Source: Patescibacteria group bacterium (GTDB lineage Bacteria > Patescibacteriota > Patescibacteriia > UBA1558 > UBA10009). From it: 64,000 nt of DNA. This document shows, one piece after another, positions 1,656 through 51,947 of this stretch (the stretch's first letter is position 1; the number at the start of each line of letters is the position of its first letter). A program made the position numbers and the translations under genes. The notes beneath the pieces are model-generated. The model did no database searches. It saw only the letters and a program-made list of their open reading frames with translations, and was not told where the DNA came from. The stretch covers positions 525 through 64,524 of the forward strand of contig JAHISB010000026.1 in NCBI GenBank assembly GCA_018818425.1. The letters run 5' to 3'.

Positions 1656-1817
1656 TTCAACCTCCTATAAAAGGACTTGGTTTATACCCTTTATTTCAAG
1701 GGTTGGATTTGATTTTTTTATCTAGTTGTTATGGTACTAACCCAAAACAATAGCATATTTCCTAGAAAATGTCAATGTTTGGCTAATTTCAGAGATTTTG
1801 TTATATTTATCAATAAT

Positions 1818-3479
1818 ATGATTGACCTAAAAAAATTACCATCTCAACCAGGCATTTACCCCGCACCAGTTTATAAGAATAAAATAAAAACCTCCTTAAA
1901 CTTCATGCCTAACTGGTGCGGGGTGTACAAATTCCTTGACCAGCAAGGCAAACTTTTATACATTGGCAAAGCTAAGAATTTGAAAAATAGAATTAAATCA
2001 TATTTTACAAAATCGGCTGATTTGACGCCGGCTAAAAAGTTGATGATTGAGAGAATTAAAAAGATTGAATTTACTGTTGTTTCTAACGAGACCGAAGCTT
2101 TGCTGTTGGAATCAACGTTGATTAAAAAACATCAGCCGCCTTTTAATGTTGAACTTAAAGACGATAAACATTGGCAGTATATAAAAGTTACGCTCAACGA
2201 AGCGTTTCCGAAAGTGGAAATTGTAAGGAAAATAACTAAAAACTTAAAACTGAAAACTAATAAAAAACCGAGATACTTTGGTCCTTATACTTCAGGCCTG
2301 GCTGTTAGACAAACCATTCGATTGATAAAAAAAGTTTTTCCTTACAGAACTTGTAATCGCGACCTTTCTAAACTACCGAAGGGGAGGGTCTGTCTGCAAT
2401 ACCATTTAGGCAGATGTTTGGGGCCGTGCGAAAAACTTTGTACCAAAAAAGGGTATGATGAAGTCATTAAACAAGCGGTTGATTTTCTTGCCGGAAAAAC
2501 TGGCGACATAATTAAAGACTTAAAACTGAAGATGCAAAATTCATCAGATAAAAAAGAGTATGAAAAAGCCAAAGTTTATCGCGACCAGATTCAAGCTATA
2601 GAAAAACTGACCGTTAAACAAAAAGTTGTTTCAACAAAACATGAAAATCAGGATTACCTTAACATTTTTAAAGAAAGAAACTTGGCCGCCGCCGCTTTAT
2701 TCAAAGTCAGGGACGGAAAATTATTAGACCAGTTGAATTTTACTTTAAAAAATGCCGAAATCTTTTCCGAAGCAGAGCTTTTAGAACAGTTCGTCAATCA
2801 ATATTATTCGCAGACGACTGATTTTCCCAAAGAAATGATTTTGCCGGTAAAAATTGACGTTCAGCTTAAAATTATTGTTCCGCAAAAAGGCGCTAAGAAA
2901 AAATTGTTGAATTTAGCCAAGGTCAACGCTAAAGAATATTTTTTGACTCAGCTGGCTTCGTGGGAGAAAAAAACCAAAGAAACTGATAAAAAATTAGAAG
3001 AACTTAAAAAAGTTTTAAATCTGACTAAAATTCCTCAAAGGATTGAGGGCTATGATATTTCCAATCTCGGCGGAAGTTTAGCTGTCGGCTCTATGGCGGT
3101 GATGACCAACGGACAGCCCGATAAAAACGAGTATCGCAAATTTAAAATTAAGACGATTAAAGGCGCCAACGACCCGGCCATGATTGGCGAGATTATTAAA
3201 AGACGGTTGAACAACAATTGGCCCAAGCCCGATTTAATGCTGATTGACGGCGGCCCGGCACAGCTCAACGCCGCTTTGAAACAAATTGATGAAAATAATA
3301 TTCCCATTGTCAGCTTAGCCAAAAAACAGGAAAAAATTTACAAACCTGACGGAAAACTGCCGCTTAAACTGCCAAAATTCTCCCCGGCTCTCCAGCTTTT
3401 GCAGCAACTCCGCGACGAAGCCCATAGGTTTGCTGTTTCTTATCATCGAAAGTTGAGGAAAAAACGATTGGTCGGGTAG
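1818..3479 (+). CDS. uvrC: excinuclease ABC subunit C (UvrC); likely start at the ATG at 1818 inside the 1731 ORF; C-terminal (HhH)2 region appears absent
   Basis: GIY-YIG motif GVYKFLDQQGKLLYIGKAKNLKNRIKSYF, UvrBC-interaction region and the RNase H-like endonuclease domain (RIEGYDISNLGGSLAVGSMAV, IDGGPAQLNAA). The protein ends right after FAVSYHRKLRKK. Confidence 0.85.
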   Translation: MIDLKKLPSQPGIYPAPVYKNKIKTSLNFMPNWCGVYKFLDQQGKLLYIGKAKNLKNRIKSYFTKSADLTPAKKLMIERIKKIEFTVVSNETEALLLESTLIKKHQPPFNVELKDDKHWQYIKVTLNEAFPKVEIVRKITKNLKLKTNKKPRYFGPYTSGLAVRQTIRLIKKVFPYRTCNRDLSKLPKGRVCLQYHLGRCLGPCEKLCTKKGYDEVIKQAVDFLAGKTGDIIKDLKLKMQNSSDKKEYEKAKVYRDQIQAIEKLTVKQKVVSTKHENQDYLNIFKERNLAAAALFKVRDGKLLDQLNFTLKNAEIFSEAELLEQFVNQYYSQTTDFPKEMILPVKIDVQLKIIVPQKGAKKKLLNLAKVNAKEYFLTQLASWEKKTKETDKKLEELKKVLNLTKIPQRIEGYDISNLGGSLAVGSMAVMTNGQPDKNEYRKFKIKTIKGANDPAMIGEIIKRRLNNNWPKPDLMLIDGGPAQLNAALKQIDENNIPIVSLAKKQEKIYKPDGKLPLKLPKFSPALQLLQQLRDEAHRFAVSYHRKLRKKRLVG

Positions 3480-3591
3480 CGGCGCAAAATGTTGCGCCGC
3501 GAAAAAAGATTGATCGGGTAGGCCTTGCATTATTATACACGAACCGTACGTACGCGCCGCGGCGCGTACGTACAATAATGTAATTATTCAA

Positions 3592-3655: not shown

Positions 3656-5779
3656 CTACTTCACCAGCATCATTTTTCCGACTTTGGTGAAATCGCCGGA
3701 AGCGAGGTGATAGAAGTAAATTCCTGAAGCCAGATGTGAACCGTCGAAAGTGACTTCGTGAATTCCTGATTCGCGGTATCCGTTGACCAGTTGAGTTACC
3801 TGCCGTCCGTTGATATCGCAGACGGTCAAAGTAACATGGCTGGCTTCGGGCAGGGTGAACGAAAGCGTAGTGGTGGGATTGAAGGGGTTGGGATAACTGC
3901 CGATGGAGTATTCCATTAGAACTTCGGCAATCTGACCCTGTACATCTTTATCCGCGCCTCCGTTCAGCACTCGCAGAACGTCCAGAGTTTTAATTTTATA
4001 CCCGTTGAACCAATCCAAGCTTGATGACCCGCCATAGTACGACGACTGGGCATGATTGTAATTGCCATAAGTTCCAGTGGCATCGGACCACACCATGCTG
4101 GCAACAGACTCCTCGCCCTCTAAGTTGAACGGATCATCATCCAGAATCGCTCCCCAAGCATTTGGAGTTTCTGGGTTGAAATCTGCAGCCAACGGCGGGA
4201 GATAACCAGTATCGCCATCGTACATATAGGTACTGATGGCGTCGTTGCTGCAGGCGCCGGTGTTCACATTAGAGGCAGTAGCTCTAAGGATATAGAACTT
4301 GGAACTTCCCGGCGCAATTTCTCTTTCGTCATAAAACGTCAGAGTTACGGTATAAGTCCAGTCATCAGCATAAAGATGGCCGGTGGGACTGGACAGATTC
4401 TCGCCGTTCTCGCCCCAGACCCGATAAGCGTCGGTGCCGCTTAATCCCGGGGTTAACTCCACAGCAGTCTCATACGAACTACCCTCTAAAACCCTTAGGT
4501 AGGTAAGGTTCAGTATTCCTGCCGTAGGCACACTATCGTACAGATGTATTTTGAACGTCTTCTGCCCAAGAGTTAAAGGCGTACCGCCTTCTTGAGCCGG
4601 AACTTCCCAGCGGTACAACTCCACTGTTCCGTTGGTCAAGATGGTGTTGGTGGTAACATCAGGGATGATTGTTGGAAAGTTGCCATGAACGATCATTTGA
4701 TTTCCGACAATATCCTCTCCGTTGCTGGTTTCGGTAAGCGTTGTGCCGCTCGAGCCGACTGCTTCAAAGTTGCTATCGCAATCAAACCCGGCGCTAATCA
4801 AATCGCCGGTATAAGCTCCATAGGTTTGGTTGATTGGCGCCAGATTGAAGCAAACATCAACTACAACATAAGGCCCCATTGGCGCATAAAGCGGTTCTGC
4901 CGTAATGTTAAAGTCGGCATTGCCGCTGACCATTGTTTGAGTGGCTTCCACCATCTGTCCGGCTTCGTTGGGGTAGCTGATAGTTACGCTCTCAACTGAC
5001 CGATCATAGATCGACAGTTCGGCCTGCTTGATTCTTAGTTTCCAAACGCTGAAGTTCTCGTTCACAGCCAGAAATCTCAACTGCTCCATTTCAACTCCGT
5101 CAGCGCCAGCCACCACATTGGCAGTTTGAGGATTAACGCCGGCGGTTACATACAGCTCGCCGGGTTCAGATTCCACATACACTTGCGAACACCACAGCAC
5201 TGAGTCTTCCGGCCAGACAAACGGAGTTCCCGGACGCATATTAATGTCGTGATGCGCCAAGTAGAACTGCCCTTCGCTGGGTTGCTGGTTCCAATCCGAA
5301 GTAAGCAGAACCTGCAAACGCAATAAGTTAGCGCCTCTATTGAGAATGTAGGCAACATGCCCTTCAAAGAAACTGACTTTTGACAGCTCGGTTCCTAAGG
5401 AATCAAAGTTAACGTAGGGCGTTAACATTTGATAGTTCTCATCACAAAGCGCCGCGGCGCTGACGTGATCGGCCAAGCTGCCGGTTACGTAGAAATCCCA
5501 GCCATGGGTTAACCTACGCCAGTCAGAATAAACAGTGATTGAGTCTGCCGGGTAGATTACGTACGATGTCGCTTCAAACGACCCCGAGCCGTTAAAGTAG
5601 AAACCAACAGCATTGTCGGTTTGTCCTGATTCGGGGGGTTTGATATCTAAGTCGCCCCATTCGCCTTCCGCTAATTTAAGGACTCGGGGGTGGCGAGGGT
5701 ACTCGTTTGCCTCAGAGGCAAACAAAAAAGTGGCCAGCATTAAGCTGATCGCGATTGTCCAGATAATGATTGTCTTCAT
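3656..5779 (-). CDS. secreted protein with N-terminal signal peptide and C-terminal T9SS (Por) sorting domain
   Basis: N-term MKTIIIWTIAISLMLATFLFASEA. C-term SYPNPFNPTTTLSFTLPEASHVTLTVCDINGRQVTQLVNGYRESGIHEVTFDGSHLASGIYFYHLASGDFTKVGKMMLVK closely matches the Por_Secre_tail (T9SS CTD) consensus. The gene is GC-richer than its surroundings. Confidence 0.8.
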   Translation of the reverse strand: MKTIIIWTIAISLMLATFLFASEANEYPRHPRVLKLAEGEWGDLDIKPPESGQTDNAVGFYFNGSGSFEATSYVIYPADSITVYSDWRRLTHGWDFYVTGSLADHVSAAALCDENYQMLTPYVNFDSLGTELSKVSFFEGHVAYILNRGANLLRLQVLLTSDWNQQPSEGQFYLAHHDINMRPGTPFVWPEDSVLWCSQVYVESEPGELYVTAGVNPQTANVVAGADGVEMEQLRFLAVNENFSVWKLRIKQAELSIYDRSVESVTISYPNEAGQMVEATQTMVSGNADFNITAEPLYAPMGPYVVVDVCFNLAPINQTYGAYTGDLISAGFDCDSNFEAVGSSGTTLTETSNGEDIVGNQMIVHGNFPTIIPDVTTNTILTNGTVELYRWEVPAQEGGTPLTLGQKTFKIHLYDSVPTAGILNLTYLRVLEGSSYETAVELTPGLSGTDAYRVWGENGENLSSPTGHLYADDWTYTVTLTFYDEREIAPGSSKFYILRATASNVNTGACSNDAISTYMYDGDTGYLPPLAADFNPETPNAWGAILDDDPFNLEGEESVASMVWSDATGTYGNYNHAQSSYYGGSSSLDWFNGYKIKTLDVLRVLNGGADKDVQGQIAEVLMEYSIGSYPNPFNPTTTLSFTLPEASHVTLTVCDINGRQVTQLVNGYRESGIHEVTFDGSHLASGIYFYHLASGDFTKVGKMMLVK

Positions 5780-11277: not shown

Positions 11278-12267
11278 GTGGTTATGACCAATCAAAAAAT
11301 ACTTTTCTCCGGTATTCAACCAACCGGTGAGATACATCTTGGCAACTATTTAGGCGCCTTAAAAAACTGGGTTGATTTGCAGAATAAGTATAGTTGCTAT
11401 TATTCCATAGTTGACCTTCATGCGATTACCATTGATTATGAACCGAAAAACTATCAGGAAAAAATTCTTGATACGGCCATGGATTTGTTGGCTATTGGCC
11501 TTAACCCCAAAAAATCAGTTCTTTTTGTCCAGTCGCGCGTTCCCGAGCACACCGAACTGTGCTGGCTGTTTAATACTTTAATTCCCATCGCCGAACTGGA
11601 GCGCATGACCCAGTTTAAAGATAAGTCCCAGGAACATAAAAAGAATATCAACGCCGGACTTTTTGATTATCCTGTTCTGCAGGCCGCTGATATTCTTTTG
11701 TATCACGGCCAAGTTGTGCCGGTGGGCGAAGACCAGCTGCAGCATTTAGAACTGGCCAATAAAATCGTCAGAAAATTCAATAACAAGTTCGGAGAATATT
11801 TTAAAGAAGTTGAGCCGGTCATCAGTTCCGGCGCCAGAATTATGTCGCTAGCTGACCCGGCAAAAAAAATGAGCAAGTCCTTAGGACCGGCCCATTATAT
11901 TTCTATTAATGATACGCCTGATGTCATTAAGAAAAAGGTGATGAAAGCTGTTACCGATACGGGCGAGGCAAAAGAAATGTCGCCGGGAGTAAAAAATCTA
12001 CTTAGACTTCTTGAGCTTTTAACCGATTCCAAAACTTTCCAAAAATACCAAAAAGTTTACGATAATAAATCAATAAGATATTCTGATTTAAAAACAGAAC
12101 TGGCTGACGCTATCATCAAACATTTAAAGCCAATTCAAGAAAAAAAGAAAGAATTGATGAAAGATAAAAACAAAGTTCAAAAAATTCTTGATACCGGCGC
12201 CAAAAAAGCGCGAAGGGTTGCGCAAAAGAATATTGTGGAGATAAAAAAGAGGATGGGGTTAATGTAA
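11278..12267 (+). CDS. trpS: tryptophan--tRNA ligase
   Basis: HIGH-type motif TGEIHLGNYLG, KMSKS motif KKMSKSL, class I aaRS TrpRS layout, about 329 aa. Confidence 0.9.
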   Translation: MVMTNQKILFSGIQPTGEIHLGNYLGALKNWVDLQNKYSCYYSIVDLHAITIDYEPKNYQEKILDTAMDLLAIGLNPKKSVLFVQSRVPEHTELCWLFNTLIPIAELERMTQFKDKSQEHKKNINAGLFDYPVLQAADILLYHGQVVPVGEDQLQHLELANKIVRKFNNKFGEYFKEVEPVISSGARIMSLADPAKKMSKSLGPAHYISINDTPDVIKKKVMKAVTDTGEAKEMSPGVKNLLRLLELLTDSKTFQKYQKVYDNKSIRYSDLKTELADAIIKHLKPIQEKKKELMKDKNKVQKILDTGAKKARRVAQKNIVEIKKRMGLM

Positions 12268-22827: not shown

Positions 22828-22943
22828 AATGAATATAGAATTTCGAATTTCGAATTCTGAATTTCGATTAAATTTCGAATAATCTAATTTCGAAATTCAA
22901 TATTTAATCGAAATTAGGTCAATTCAAAATTCAGAATTATCAT

Positions 22944-38988: not shown

Positions 38989-39852
38989 TTAATTAATATT
39001 TAATTTCTTAAGCGCTGCTTGAAAAATCTCTTTAGCGTTCTCGTAGTCAATCATTTCTAAGGCCCGGTCTTTAGTTACCCATTGGGCGTCTTTAATTTCC
39101 GGTTCGTCGGTTATGGTTAAATCGGCATCGGTTGTTTCGATTAAATAATAATGAACGGTTTTAGGCACCGGGCGCTTATTGGGTTCATTAACCTTAATAT
39201 CGATACTGCCTAAATAACCTTTATTTTGAGTATTGGTTATGCCCACCTCTTCGCAAATTTCACGCTGGGCCGCTTTTTCTTTATCCTCGTTATCTTCGAT
39301 ATGGCCTTTGGGGAAAGTCCATTTATCATAAGCGTCCAAGACTAAAACAAATTTGACCTTATCGCCTTCTATCCGATAAACCACTCCGCCGGCCGAATAT
39401 TCCCGAGGCGGTTCTGTTTCAAACTCCTTTTTTTCGCCGCCTTCCTGCATCTCTTTAAAAACACTGCCCAAAACTCCATTAACAAACTTGCCCGACGACT
39501 CTCCGCCATAAGTTTTAGCCAGTTCAATAGCTTCGTTAATGGCTACTTTGGGCGGAATATCATCAGCTATTTTTAATTCATAAATACCCGTTCTTAAAAC
39601 ATTTCTGTCGACAATGGTAATTTGTTCAATGGGCCATTCGGGAGCATATTTTTTTATTAAGCCATCTATCTCTTTAATATTTTCGGTTACTTTAGTTAAA
39701 AGATGTTCGGAAAATCCCTGGTCATCAAAATCAGGAGCAAATTCCTTTCTGTTATTCTCCAAAATTTTATGGATATTTTCAGATTGCTGGTTAAAATCCC
39801 ATTGAAATAAGCTTTGAAGAACTAAAGTTCTGGCTAAATGTCTGTTAGACAT
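38989..39852 (-). CDS. nusB: NusB antitermination factor fused to a C-terminal NUDIX hydrolase domain
   Basis: N-terminal roughly 135 aa NusB (ARTLVLQSLFQWDF...AINEAIELAKTYGGESSGKFVNGVLG), then a Nudix domain with box GHIEDNEDKEKAAQREICEEVGI. Confidence 0.75.
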   Translation of the reverse strand: MSNRHLARTLVLQSLFQWDFNQQSENIHKILENNRKEFAPDFDDQGFSEHLLTKVTENIKEIDGLIKKYAPEWPIEQITIVDRNVLRTGIYELKIADDIPPKVAINEAIELAKTYGGESSGKFVNGVLGSVFKEMQEGGEKKEFETEPPREYSAGGVVYRIEGDKVKFVLVLDAYDKWTFPKGHIEDNEDKEKAAQREICEEVGITNTQNKGYLGSIDIKVNEPNKRPVPKTVHYYLIETTDADLTITDEPEIKDAQWVTKDRALEMIDYENAKEIFQAALKKLNIN

Positions 39853-39967
39853 AAATTTTGAATTTCTAATTTTGAATTTCGATTTAATTTTTACTTATTT
39901 AATTTTGAAGCTGTTTCGAAATTCGGTTTTCAAAATTTATTCGAAATTCAAAATTCAAAATTAATTC

Positions 39968-40186
39968 CTATTTTTCTTTTTTTTCTTTCTTTGCTTTTTT
40001 ATCTAAACTGGACTTTATCTTTATCACCTCGCGCCCCTTGTAATAACCGCAAAACCGGCAGGCTCTGTGAGCCAGGATCGGCTTTTGGCATTTAGGGCAT
40101 TTGTTTAGGCTAGATTTTTTTAAAGCAAAATGCGAAGCTCTCCTTTTTTTAGAAGATTTTGTTCTTTTTTGCGAAGGAAGTCCCAT
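39968..40186 (-). CDS. rpmF: 50S ribosomal protein L32
   Basis: MGLPSQKRTKSSKKRRASH...CPKCQKPILAHRACRFCGYYKGREV, bL32 zinc-ribbon pattern. Confidence 0.8.
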   Translation of the reverse strand: MGLPSQKRTKSSKKRRASHFALKKSSLNKCPKCQKPILAHRACRFCGYYKGREVIKIKSSLDKKAKKEKKEK

Positions 40187-51395: not shown

Positions 51396-51462
51396 AAGAT
51401 TAATTTTGAATTTTGAAAATAGAATTTTGAATATGTTAATTTGCGTCAACCAGGATGCCTGC

Positions 51463-51545
51463 CCGCCTCTGGCGGGAAAACCTGGTGTCCCTGCCTGCCG
51501 GCAGGCTAACCCCTCGCCTCTGGCGGAATTAGACGATAGGGCCAT
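51463..51545 (-). pseudogene. scrambled partial copy of tRNA-Glu 5' half interrupted by a family-D palindrome footprint
   Basis: AAAACCTGGTGTCC (tRNA-Glu internal) + CCTGCCTGCCGGCAGG + ...AATTAGACGATAGGGCC (tRNA 5' end); a further 5'-end fragment AGACGATAGGGCT lies at 51645-51657 with the same upstream flank. Confidence 0.5.
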
Positions 51546-51947
51546 TTAAAATTTCCAATTACTAATTTTCAATAAATTCTCAATGTTTAAATTTTCAAAC
51601 AATTTCCAATAATCATTATTTGTGTTTGCGTCAGAGCAGAATTAGACGATAGGGCTATGATTAATTTTGAATTTTGAATTTCGATTGAGTTTTGAATGAT
51701 AAATTTTTAAATTTCCAATAACCAGTTACCAGTTACTGATTACTGGTAATAAAAAACTATAGCCAATACTAACAGAATTTTAACAAAAAGTCAACCCTTG
51801 CTCCCTACATTCTGCTCCCAAGCTTAATTAATTCAAAAGGACAACTAAGTTGAGGTAAAATAATTAAGCTTTGGATTAGAATTCGCGTTTTGACAAAATA
51901 TAATTATAGTATATACTTAGTATATAAATAGTATAACTATTAAATAT

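What the first reader, a model, noticed from the sequence alone, without database searches (positions are those of the whole stretch)
1859..1923. 69-bp in-frame palindromic insertion with 13-bp terminal inverted repeats inside the GIY-YIG region of uvrC
CCCCGCACCAGTT (1859-1871) and AACTGGTGCGGGG (1911-1923) are perfect inverted repeats around a 39-nt AT-rich loop. Removing 69 nt restores a canonical PSQPG-VYKF... GIY-YIG N-terminus, so the element adds 23 codons (IYPAPVYKNKIKTSLNFMPNWCG) without breaking the frame and duplicates the G(I/V)Y context in a TSD-like way (GGCATTTAC / GGGGTGTAC). It looks like a miniature in-frame MITE-like insertion in an essential repair gene.
Basis: seen in the sequence. 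Interest (0 to 1): 0.6.

Follow-up and report, generated by a model that had tools for sequence, protein, structure and literature searches.

The report
In-frame palindromic hairpin element in uvrC
A 69-base hairpin-forming DNA element, belonging to a previously undescribed family found in several bacterial phyla, sits in frame inside the DNA-repair gene uvrC of a Patescibacteria genome and is tolerated because its own sequence re-creates the protein motif it interrupts.

Summary
A perfect 14-nt inverted repeat (1858-1871 / 1911-1924) with a 39-nt AT-rich loop lies in uvrC (1818-3479, +). It adds exactly 69 nt (23 codons) after the GIY motif. Of 112 UvrC homologues with a readable motif, 109 lack it.

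Only three lineages carry an insert at this site. The window and a 74%-identical relative have an intact hairpin. A third, in another UvrC clade, keeps the 23 codons but its hairpin has decayed.

The core CCCGCACCAGTT...AACTGGTGCGGG is not private to this gene. It defines hairpins with 13-14-nt arms and mostly 37-43-nt loops. They are multi-copy in Chthoniobacterales MAGs, and also occur in Williamsia, in other phyla, and at the apex of helix 44 of a CPR-like 16S rRNA. So this is an RPE/REP-like palindromic element inserted in frame.

It is almost certainly translated. The insert-encoded ...MPNWCG-VY stands in for the canonical ...PxxPG-VY strand in an AlphaFold model and in a PDB alignment.

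Between the two hairpin-bearing lineages, stem and flanks are nucleotide-identical although synonymous sites elsewhere are near saturation (p about 3e-5). This is unexplained. No target-site duplication, transposase or second copy in the 64 kb was found, so "MITE" in the strict sense is not shown.

The parts
1818..3479 (+). uvrC coding sequence (553 aa plus stop) hosting the element
   Evidence: ORF and translation. Identical to MBU1131008.1; Pfam GIY-YIG, UVR, UvrC_M and UvrC_RNaseH domains precomputed. AlphaFold mean pLDDT 90.
1857..1925 (+). 69-nt insertion relative to orthologues. The register is ambiguous by 3 nt: 1857-1925 through 1860-1928 are equivalent because TAC occurs at both junctions.
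   Evidence: N-terminal sequences and DNA of homologues with and without the insert.
1858..1871 (.). Left arm ACCCCGCACCAGTT; family-conserved core CCCGCACCAGTT at 1860-1871
1872..1910 (.). 39-nt AT-rich loop, encoding YKNKIKTSLNFMP in the uvrC frame
   Evidence: All differences from L001 (5 substitutions and a 3-nt indel) lie here.
1911..1924 (.). Right arm AACTGGTGCGGGGT; conserved core AACTGGTGCGGG at 1911-1922. It encodes N-W-C-G, which with the following V-Y replaces the canonical PG-VY strand.
1848..1937 (+). Block of excess nucleotide conservation with the 74%-identical orthologue in L001. Arms plus 12 nt upstream and 17 nt downstream of exon sequence are 100% identical. Flanks AGGCAUU / AAUUCCU can extend the helix.
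   Evidence: 24 of 26 same-amino-acid codons identical against 54% elsewhere, p = 3e-5.
1779..1807 (+). Promoter-like site TTGGCT-17-TATATT with TG before the -10 hexamer, 10 nt upstream of the ATG. The -10 region is conserved in orthologous loci, which implies a very short leader and places the hairpin about 45 nt from the mRNA 5' end.
   Evidence: The short leader is an inference from a consensus match only.

Best explanation
A small non-autonomous palindromic DNA element of about 67-69 nt was inserted into uvrC directly after the GIY codons. It has 13-14-bp GC-rich arms around a roughly 40-nt variable centre. It belongs to an apparently undescribed cross-phylum family defined by the stem CCCGCACCAGTT / AACTGGTGCGGG.

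The insert is a multiple of three and stop-free in the uvrC frame, so it is translated and adds 23 residues. It is tolerated because its 3' half happens to encode ...(hydrophobic)-P-N-W-C-G. Followed by V-Y, this reproduces the canonical ...(hydrophobic)-P-x-x-P-G-V-Y that leads into the first strand of the GIY-YIG fold. The original N-terminus (residues 1-14) plus the first part of the insert become an N-terminal appendage.

The element itself probably has no repair function. In one lineage (P0070) the hairpin has decayed while the 23 codons persist. In the window and its nearest relative the stem is frozen. I take that as secondary constraint on the hairpin, RNA-level or DNA-level, or as homogenisation with other copies.

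Shown: the insertion, family membership by sequence, the open frame, and the structural substitution in silico. Inferred: mobility, how it inserted (unknown; no target duplication is evident, so a hairpin/ssDNA, REP-like route is my guess), and neutrality.
For: (1) Insertion. 109 of 112 UvrC homologues have GIY-12-YIG spacing. Only P0001, P0002 and P0070 carry +23/+24 residues at the same point. A profile of the insert peptide shares 5-residue words with only three proteins in the 5.8-billion-sequence database, which I take to be those same three. Empty sites read GGN ATT TAC|AAA and GGC GTC TAC|CGA in the sister lineages.

(2) Family. The pattern CCGCACCAGTT-N25-55-AACTGGTGCGG gives 34 loci in GTDB representative genomes, against roughly 2 expected by my own estimate. 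At least 12 are in one Verrucomicrobiae MAG and 6-8 each in two Chthoniobacterales MAGs. Others are in Williamsia sterculiae (an isolate, with a second, slightly diverged copy 570 nt away), Methylomirabilis and Gammaproteobacteria MAGs. Arms extend to 13-14 bp in 33 of 43 copies, and 36 of 43 loops are 37-43 nt although 25-55 was allowed. The window copy (14-bp arms, 39-nt loop) is typical. All ten copies tested fold as long hairpins, z = -4.3 to -13.

(3) Other tolerated sites. Copies lie just after stop codons or between operon genes. One is nested in a 335-nt MITE. One, with the same 13-nt arms as the window, sits at the apex of helix 44 of a CPR-like 16S rRNA.

(4) Translated. Insert lengths are 69, 72 and 69 nt and all are stop-free, while the other two frames of the loop contain stops. 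Codons 1-14 upstream show 4 synonymous changes against 1 replacement between the window and L001.

(5) Motif substitution. MAFFT places the invariant G and Y columns on G35/Y37. AlphaFold gives strands 35-40 and 46-52 at pLDDT 93-94, against 62-82 for residues 1-30. phmmer aligns residues 20-118 to solved UvrC N-domains 1YCZ/1YD6 starting at their residue 2-3.

(6) Real. Independent assemblies carry it.
Against: No second copy lies in the 64 kb or in the relatives' contigs, so mobility within this genome is not shown. No transposase or recurrent neighbouring gene was found, and no clear target-site duplication.

The same site is occupied in two separate UvrC clades. That requires site-specific re-insertion, lateral transfer of a short segment, or several precise losses. 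None of these is demonstrated.

Stem and flanks are completely identical between lineages whose synonymous sites are near saturation. A purely neutral passenger would not show this.

The resemblance of the insert peptide to a UvrC N-terminus could also hint at a duplication origin for the loop.
Confidence: 0.6

Rival explanations
1. Exapted cis-acting hairpin. Whatever its origin, the stem-loop is now maintained by selection at this locus as an RNA (or DNA) structure in the first 110 nt of a near-leaderless uvrC mRNA. It might act as an RNase III or decay determinant, or as a translation-rate element that sets UvrC level. This is compatible with the best explanation as a later step.
For: Window against L001: arms plus 12- and 17-nt flanks show 0 changes in 56 nt, the loop shows 5 changes plus a 3-nt indel in 39 nt, and gene-wide third-position identity is 55%. 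Same-amino-acid codons are identical in 24 of 26 cases inside the block against 54% outside, p = 3e-5. The block is the most conserved 24-codon window of the gene. Its limits (1848-1937) coincide with the predicted extended helix AGGCAUU / AAUUCCU. A promoter-like site lies 10 nt upstream of the ATG.
Against: Only two sequences are available, with no compensatory change to show that pairing rather than sequence is selected. In P0070 the hairpin has decayed (z = -1.7) and the gene is otherwise intact. No U-tract or known regulatory motif is present. Flank conservation may partly reflect the conserved GIY-YIG residues.
Confidence: 0.22
2. Homing-like lateral spread. The insert, with a few flanking bases, moves between related Patescibacteria by homologous recombination into the highly conserved GIY-coding site, as inteins and homing introns do. 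This would explain the patchy distribution and the identical flanks.
For: The same site is occupied in two UvrC clades separated by many insert-free lineages, while synteny (uvrC-secG-SBP) shows the loci are orthologous. Identity is confined to about 90 nt. The site is the most conserved motif of the protein.
Against: There is no endonuclease or donor. The loop is more diverged than the stem and flanks within the supposedly co-transferred tract. P0070 shares no flank identity with the window. Precise loss by slippage between TAC...TAC is an equally simple explanation for the patchiness.
Confidence: 0.1
3. The insert is removed or skipped so that mature UvrC is canonical. Either the hairpin is excised from the RNA, like rRNA intervening sequences, or ribosomes hop from the TAC at 1857-1859 to the TAC at 1926-1928. 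Ribosome hopping is known from phage T4 gene 60 and the yeast-mitochondrial 'byp' GC-hairpin inserts; that comparison is from my own knowledge.
For: The same hairpin occupies an rRNA helix tip, where CPR rRNA insertions are reported to be absent from transcripts (PMC9297842, citing Brown et al. 2015). The stem juxtaposes the two junctions. Matching TAC codons flank the insert. Hairpin-plus-flank pairing is conserved.
Against: Three inserts are all multiples of 3 and stop-free in AT-rich sequence, including a frame-preserving 3-nt indel; by my estimate p is about 0.006 without selection for reading through. P0070 keeps the ORF after losing the hairpin. The insert peptide conserves the N-terminal consensus positions. 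There is no canonical bulge-helix-bulge motif by my own inspection, no stop codon after the take-off codon, and no Rfam intron or ribozyme hit.
Confidence: 0.05
4. Not a foreign element. It would be a lineage-specific loop or a tandem duplication of the uvrC 5' end whose palindromic character is incidental, or an assembly artefact.
For: The insert peptide resembles a UvrC N-terminus. In P0070, LPNQCGVY repeats the native LPDQSGVY. There is no other copy in the window.
Against: A 14-bp perfect GC-rich inverted repeat in a 41% GC genome is far beyond chance. Its 12-13-nt arms are identical to a multi-copy family in other phyla. At the DNA level the window's insert end matches the native segment at only 9 of 27 nt, by my own count. 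The P0070 repeats differ at most synonymous positions, which points to convergence rather than duplication. The insert appears in at least 4 independent assemblies.
Confidence: 0.03

Closest known systems
Rickettsia palindromic elements (RPEs; Ogata et al. 2000, 2002, as summarised in PMC10969869)
   Same: Short palindromic repeats inserted in frame into unrelated housekeeping genes. They are translated as extra peptides and are compatible with the fold and function of the host protein. RPEs are also reported in RNA genes (my recollection); here a family member sits in a 16S rRNA helix.
   Different: RPEs are about 100-150 bp, occur in dozens of copies within one genome, and are confined to Rickettsia. 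This element is 67-69 nt and single-copy in the 64 kb examined. Its 12-bp stem is shared across phyla while the centre is hypervariable.
REP / BIME / REPIN elements of Proteobacteria (mobilised by RAYT Y1 transposases)
   Same: Hairpin-forming and multi-copy. Mostly intergenic, just after stop codons or between operon genes. No target-site duplication. Stem conserved, centre variable.
   Different: The arms carry no GTAG-type motif. No RAYT or other transposase was identified. This copy is intragenic. The family spans phyla, whereas REP families are species- or genus-specific (that last point is from my own knowledge).
Prokaryotic MITEs (e.g. Correia, QMITE; PMC10969869, PMC5896051)
   Same: Small, with terminal inverted repeats and stable stem-loop transcripts, occasionally forming in-frame fusions with host ORFs.
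   Different: No consistent TSD and no parent IS. The conserved part is the stem next to the loop, with a defined 37-43-nt centre. At 65-69 nt it is at the very small end of the range.
rRNA intervening sequences at helix tips (e.g. Salmonella 23S helix 25/45; from my own knowledge) and CPR rRNA insertions (PMC9297842)
   Same: An extended hairpin occupying the apex of an rRNA helix, with sporadic distribution. The L044/L040 copy is at the helix 44 apex.
   Different: The window copy is in a protein-coding gene and appears to be translated.
PARCELs, palindromic amphipathic repeat coding elements (PMC2996958)
   Same: Palindromic, protein-coding, horizontally distributed among diverse bacteria.
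   Different: By its title and abstract, a palindromic amphipathic repeat coding sequence among intragenic tandem repeats of Mollicute surface-type repeat proteins; here a single unit in an enzyme.

Membership tests
UvrC (GIY-YIG N-terminal domain) | GIY...YIG motif with conserved Tyr, Gly, Lys and Arg, plus UVR and RNase-H-like/EndoV-like domains | tested here: met
   Pfam domains precomputed for the identical protein. Invariant G35, Y37, Y48, G50, K51 and R58 in a 90-sequence alignment. E = 7e-22 to PDB 1YD6.
CCCGCACCAGTT-hairpin family (defined here) | Inverted 12-nt core CCCGCACCAGTT / AACTGGTGCGGG, arms paired for 13-14 bp, centre of 37-43 nt | tested here: met
   Window copy: 14-bp arms, 39-nt centre. 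Family statistics from 43 copies.
MITE | Terminal inverted repeats and small size | tested here: met
   14-bp perfect arms, 67-69 nt.
MITE | Target-site duplication of fixed length flanking every copy | tested here: inconclusive
   Window ATTTAC/GTGTAC 4/6; P0070 GTTTAT/GTTTAC 5/6. Other copies show no consistent direct repeat; some show inverted flanks instead.
MITE | Multiple copies in the same genome | tested here: not met
   No other copy in the 64-kb window or in L001/L047/L051. Only about 6% of a ~1-Mb genome (an assumed size) was visible. The feature is met in Verrucomicrobial genomes.
MITE | Related autonomous IS with matching terminal repeats | not tested
   No recurrent ORF within 1.5 kb of 40 copies by all-against-all BLASTP. 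No genome-wide search was possible.
Rickettsia palindromic elements | In-frame, translated palindromic insertion in a housekeeping gene | tested here: met
Rickettsia palindromic elements | Sequence membership in RPE-1 to RPE-10, found in Rickettsia genomes | tested here: not met
   Host is Patescibacteria. The size is about half that of an RPE. Literature and Rfam searches gave no match. I made no direct alignment to RPE consensus sequences.
REP/REPIN | Association with a RAYT gene and a conserved 5' tetranucleotide (GTAG) | tested here: inconclusive
   No GTAG in the arms (direct reading). RAYT presence could not be searched genome-wide.
Integron attC | Outer RYYYAAC ... GTTRRRY cores, imperfect stem with extrahelical bases | tested here: not met
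   GTT...AAC here face the loop, the opposite order, and the stems are perfect. The attC consensus is from my own knowledge.
Archaeal-type bulge-helix-bulge intron | Two 3-nt bulges separated by a 4-bp helix at the junctions | tested here: not met
   The best register gives a 1x1 mismatch and a single 4-nt bulge (fold, my own inspection).
Any Rfam family | Covariance-model hit at or near the gathering score | tested here: not met
   Only generic miRNA-hairpin noise, E above 0.004 and far below the gathering scores.

The most novel reading that the evidence does not exclude
The CCCGCACCAGTT hairpin is a new kind of cross-phylum 'helix-tip' selfish element. It colonises sites where an added stem-loop is harmless: rRNA helix apices, terminator-like intergenic spots, the interior of other palindromic elements, and, in frame, conserved protein motifs. 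It would spread between lineages by a homing-like or hairpin-templated route, and it is kept intact at the uvrC locus because the RNA hairpin is processed or otherwise used. At the extreme, it is cut out of, or hopped over in, the uvrC message.
Probability: 0.12. Interest if true: 0.8.

Novelty: new variant of a known kind. Interest (0 to 1): 0.55.

Why it matters
[quoted passage not shown] This shows the same phenomenon in the Candidate Phyla Radiation, at the catalytic motif of a repair nuclease. It comes with a concrete reason for tolerance: the element re-creates the motif it splits.

More broadly, it exposes an apparently undescribed hairpin family. Its 12-bp stem is invariant from Actinobacteria to Verrucomicrobia to Patescibacteria, while its centre drifts to host composition. 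The family also occupies a 16S rRNA helix tip. That links three phenomena usually treated separately: REP-like intergenic repeats, rRNA helix-tip insertions in CPR bacteria, and coding palindromes. It also raises a testable question: what protein or process recognises this stem?

Practically, such inserts can mislead gene callers. Here the gene was annotated as 553 aa in one source and 582 aa in another. They can also mislead motif-spacing-based annotation.

Tried and rejected
- **Other copies in the window.** Search with the 13-mer at up to 2 mismatches, then a fuzzy two-arm search at up to 2 mismatches per arm. None found.
- **Rfam.** Gathering and permissive thresholds on the window, on eight family loci, on the Verrucomicrobial MITE and on the Williamsia copies. 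Only tRNAs, 16S rRNA and noise.
- **Full-text literature search** for the arm sequences. Only unrelated PCR primers.
- **tRNA connection.** The left arm reads like a tRNA 3' end (CCCCGCACCA), and L025 has a T-arm-like GCGGGTTCAAACCCGC next to it. ARAGORN finds no tRNA at any copy. Dropped as coincidence.
- **attC, LexA box, dif/Xer, Chi, BHB intron, intein, internal start codon.** Each was compared by eye with consensus sequences I recalled, and none fits. See the membership table. M30 is not conserved in L001.
- **Insertion into the centre of pre-existing palindromes.** The empty uvrC site GAATTT-AC-AAATTC and loci L016, L010 and L041 suggested this. Outward pairing beyond 14 bp occurs in only 4 of 43 copies (8, 8, 11 and 19 bp), and the P0070 site is not palindromic. 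Left as a weak lead.
- **Loop homology** between the window and other copies. Best z = 3.2 among 84 comparisons, which is not convincing.
- **A common neighbouring protein (transposase/RAYT).** All-against-all BLASTP of 131 ORFs near copies recovered only spurious ORFs across the MITE and unrelated pairs.
- **Extending beyond the window** to find the organism's 16S rRNA or further copies. The contig starts 524 nt before the window, and the downstream look-up returned only a short contig.
- **Profile search with the insert peptide** for other host proteins. Only three candidates shared words with it and none scored.
Full report
**Observation**

The sequence is as described. The perfect inverted repeat is 14 nt, ACCCCGCACCAGTT at 1858-1871 and AACTGGTGCGGGGT at 1911-1924, around a 39-nt loop. 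By my count the loop is 74% A+T.

As RNA it folds at -26.9 kcal/mol, z = -5.1, and none of 200 shuffles folds as well. A first-order Markov model of the window predicts 0.12 perfect repeats of this size. Seven are present, and this is the only one of them inside a long ORF.

The host gene is uvrC, with ATG at 1818 and stop at 3479, on the + strand. It is identical to MBU1131008.1 from a Patescibacteria MAG. A promoter-like TTGGCT-17-TATATT ends 10 nt before the ATG. Its -10 region recurs upstream of the orthologues. The mRNA leader is therefore probably only a few bases long.

**It is an insertion**

Among the 120 best UvrC homologues, 112 have a readable motif. Of these, 109 have exactly 12 residues between GIY and YIG. 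The window protein has 35...PSQPGIY-PAPVYKNKIKTSLNFMPNWCGVY-KF.... The closest insert-free orthologues read GGA ATT TAC|AAA TTC (P0003, 69% identity) and GGT ATT TAT|AGA TTC (P0004).

The extra 69 nt can be placed at 1857-1925 through 1860-1928, because TAC occurs at both junctions. A separate assembly, translating to the same 582-aa ORF product, carries it too.

**Who else has it**

Only two other lineages do.

- **P0002** (74% identical; Logan contig L001) has a 72-nt version. Its arms are base-for-base identical, and its loop differs by five substitutions and one AAT codon.
- **P0070/P0122** (about 55% identical; two assemblies) has 69 nt at the same point, GVY-PAPDKKTQKNKIISRLPNQCG-VYRF. 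Its arms have decayed to CCTGCACCAGAT / AATCAGTGCGGA, and the fold is no better than shuffles (z = -1.7).

A profile of the three insert peptides shared 5-residue words with only three proteins in the 5.8-billion-sequence database, which I take to be these same three.

In a neighbour-joining tree, P0001 and P0002 are sister to the insert-free P0003 and P0004. P0070 groups with the insert-free P0009 (63% identity). The uvrC-secG-SBP synteny shows that these loci are orthologous.

The distribution is therefore patchy. It needs repeated same-site acquisition, lateral transfer of a short segment, or several precise losses. I could not discriminate among these.

**The arms belong to a family**

Scanning one genome per GTDB species for CCGCACCAGTT-N25-55-AACTGGTGCGG returned 34 loci. 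My own estimate of the chance expectation is about two.

- At least 12 hits are in one Verrucomicrobiae MAG.
- Six to eight each are in two Chthoniobacterales MAGs.
- Others are in the isolate Williamsia sterculiae, which also holds a second, slightly diverged copy 570 nt away, and in Methylomirabilis and Gammaproteobacteria MAGs.
- Three hits (L019, L021, L038) show no pairing beyond the searched core and may be chance.

A metagenome scan with the window's 13-nt arms gave six more loci.

Across 43 copies the pairing typically extends to 13-14 bp. The position outside the 12-nt core covaries (T:A, C:G or A:T). Loop length clusters at 37-43 nt in 36 of 43 copies, although 25-55 was allowed.

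Loop sequence follows host composition: GC-rich in Verrucomicrobia and AT-rich here. Inside otherwise 90%-identical copies of a 335-nt Verrucomicrobial MITE, the loop is much more diverged than its surroundings. All ten copies I folded form long hairpins.

Neither Rfam nor a full-text search for the arm sequences recognises the family.

**Where family members sit**

- Immediately after stop codons: leuS in L039, rpoD in L006, an ABC transporter in L035, VOC-family genes in L042 and L007.
- Between nuoG and nuoH in L041/L043.
- 30 nt upstream of pfk in L022, and just upstream of dinB in Williamsia.
- At the apex of helix 44 of a 1704-nt, CPR-like 16S rRNA gene (L044, and the same gene in L040), with the same 13-nt arms as the window.

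CPR 16S rRNAs are reported to have a shortened helix 44 tip and frequent insertions (PMC9297842). The L035 copy carries h44-like flanks, CCGAA / GAAGG. At least that copy therefore shares ancestry with an rRNA-embedded one.

These are all places where an extra stem-loop is harmless. This is the pattern known for REP elements, for rRNA intervening sequences and, in coding regions, for Rickettsia palindromic elements (PMC10969869).

**Why uvrC survives it**

The insert is open in the uvrC frame, and the other two frames of the loop contain stops. All three versions are multiples of three, including a frame-preserving indel. The native N-terminus upstream evolves with 4 synonymous changes against 1 replacement. 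The insert is therefore translated.

The alignment of 90 homologues puts the invariant G and Y on G35 and Y37, the insert-derived copy. AlphaFold (mean pLDDT 90) builds the two canonical strands from residues 35-40 and 46-52 at pLDDT 93-94. Residues 1-30 score 62-82, with a short strand at 12-15 and a helix at 23-27.

phmmer aligns residues 20-118 to the solved UvrC N-terminal domains 1YCZ and 1YD6, starting from their second or third residue. In other words, KNKIKTSLNFMPNWCGVY plays the part of KEKIRKKILLAPEEPGVY.

All three inserts keep a hydrophobic residue at -8 and -5 and Pro at -4 relative to the Gly. The Pro codon CCT and the N-W-C-G codons come from the element. In P0070 the right arm has changed TGG to CAG, which breaks the stem and gives LPNQCGVY, close to its native LPDQSGVY. 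This looks like protein-level domestication.

**The unexplained part**

Between the window and L001, codons for identical amino acids are identical in 54% of cases outside the region but in 24 of 26 cases within alignment columns 10-40 (p = 3e-5). All 17 such codons in the arms and flanks are identical (p = 3e-5).

The identical stretch runs from about 1848 to 1937. This matches the limits of an extended helix, AGGCAUU / AAUUCCU, predicted around the stem. All changes are in the loop.

A neutral passenger would not behave like this. The options are selection on the hairpin at this locus, homogenisation with unseen copies elsewhere in the genome, or recent lateral spread with short co-converted flanks. 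The loop-against-stem contrast mildly favours selection on the stem.

**What I could not show**

- I found no target-site duplication. At most 6 nt could be duplicated, at 4/6 in the window and 5/6 in P0070.
- A symmetric 69-nt element at 1857-1925 with no duplication fits equally well.
- I found no transposase or recurrent neighbouring gene, no second copy in this genome fragment, and no evidence of the insertion mechanism.

**Verdict**

The interpretation as an in-frame palindromic mobile-type element is supported in substance, and "MITE with TSD" is not.

The closest analogue in behaviour is the RPE. In sequence organisation it resembles REP-like hairpins. It is not a sequence member of any described family that I could test.

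Noticed in passing
window 3546-3573: Perfect 28-bp GC-rich palindrome GTACGTACGCGCCG|CGGCGCGTACGTAC with no spacer. It lies between the convergent uvrC (stop 3479) and the 707-aa ORF at 3656-5779 (-), which carries a Por_Secre_tail domain. It could be a bidirectional terminator or another palindromic element.
   Followed up: no
window 22832-22938, 39846-39970, 51402-51720: AT-rich arrays of the heptamer GAATTTY (e.g. AATTTTGAATTTCGA) arranged as inverted repeats in intergenic regions. The third array lies next to a tRNA cluster. This is a second, unrelated palindromic repeat family in this genome.
   Followed up: partly
L044 11030-12733 (16S rRNA): The CPR-like 16S rRNA gene is 1704 nt long. 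Besides the helix 44 hairpin it holds an AT-rich palindromic insertion of about 150 nt (GAAATTCCAAAT...ATTTGGAATTTC). In style it resembles the heptamer arrays in the window.
   Followed up: no
L030 997-1329 (Verrucomicrobiae MAG MFD03346.bin.2.54): A 335-nt MITE with 31-bp perfect terminal inverted repeats CTAGTGCACCGTCTCGCATATAATGGTGATG. It is present in many copies in two or more Chthoniobacterales genomes, with the CCCGCACCAGTT hairpin nested inside another internal palindrome. The hairpin loop is hypervariable between copies.
   Followed up: partly
L007 448-511 and 1020-1081 (Williamsia sterculiae CPCC 203464): Two family hairpins flank a small VOC/glyoxalase-family gene. The second lies directly upstream of dinB (DNA polymerase IV). 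Another copy (L042) also follows a VOC-family gene. This may be coincidence.
   Followed up: no
L047 485-1873 (P0070): This UvrC is 462 aa and lacks the Cys-rich segment (FPYRTCN...CLQYHLGRCLGPC) present in the window protein. The segment is replaced by an unrelated Gly/Ser-rich stretch.
   Followed up: no
window 1731-1817: The ORF is open from an upstream ATG at 1731, and one source annotates a 582-aa product (P0121). Homologue N-termini and the promoter-like site at 1779-1807 indicate that the true start is the ATG at 1818.
   Followed up: yes
window 11639-11699: A 15-nt, 93%-complementary inverted repeat inside the TrpRS gene (11278-12267). It overlaps canonical conserved TrpRS sequence and is not an insertion, so it is a chance repeat.
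   Followed up: yes
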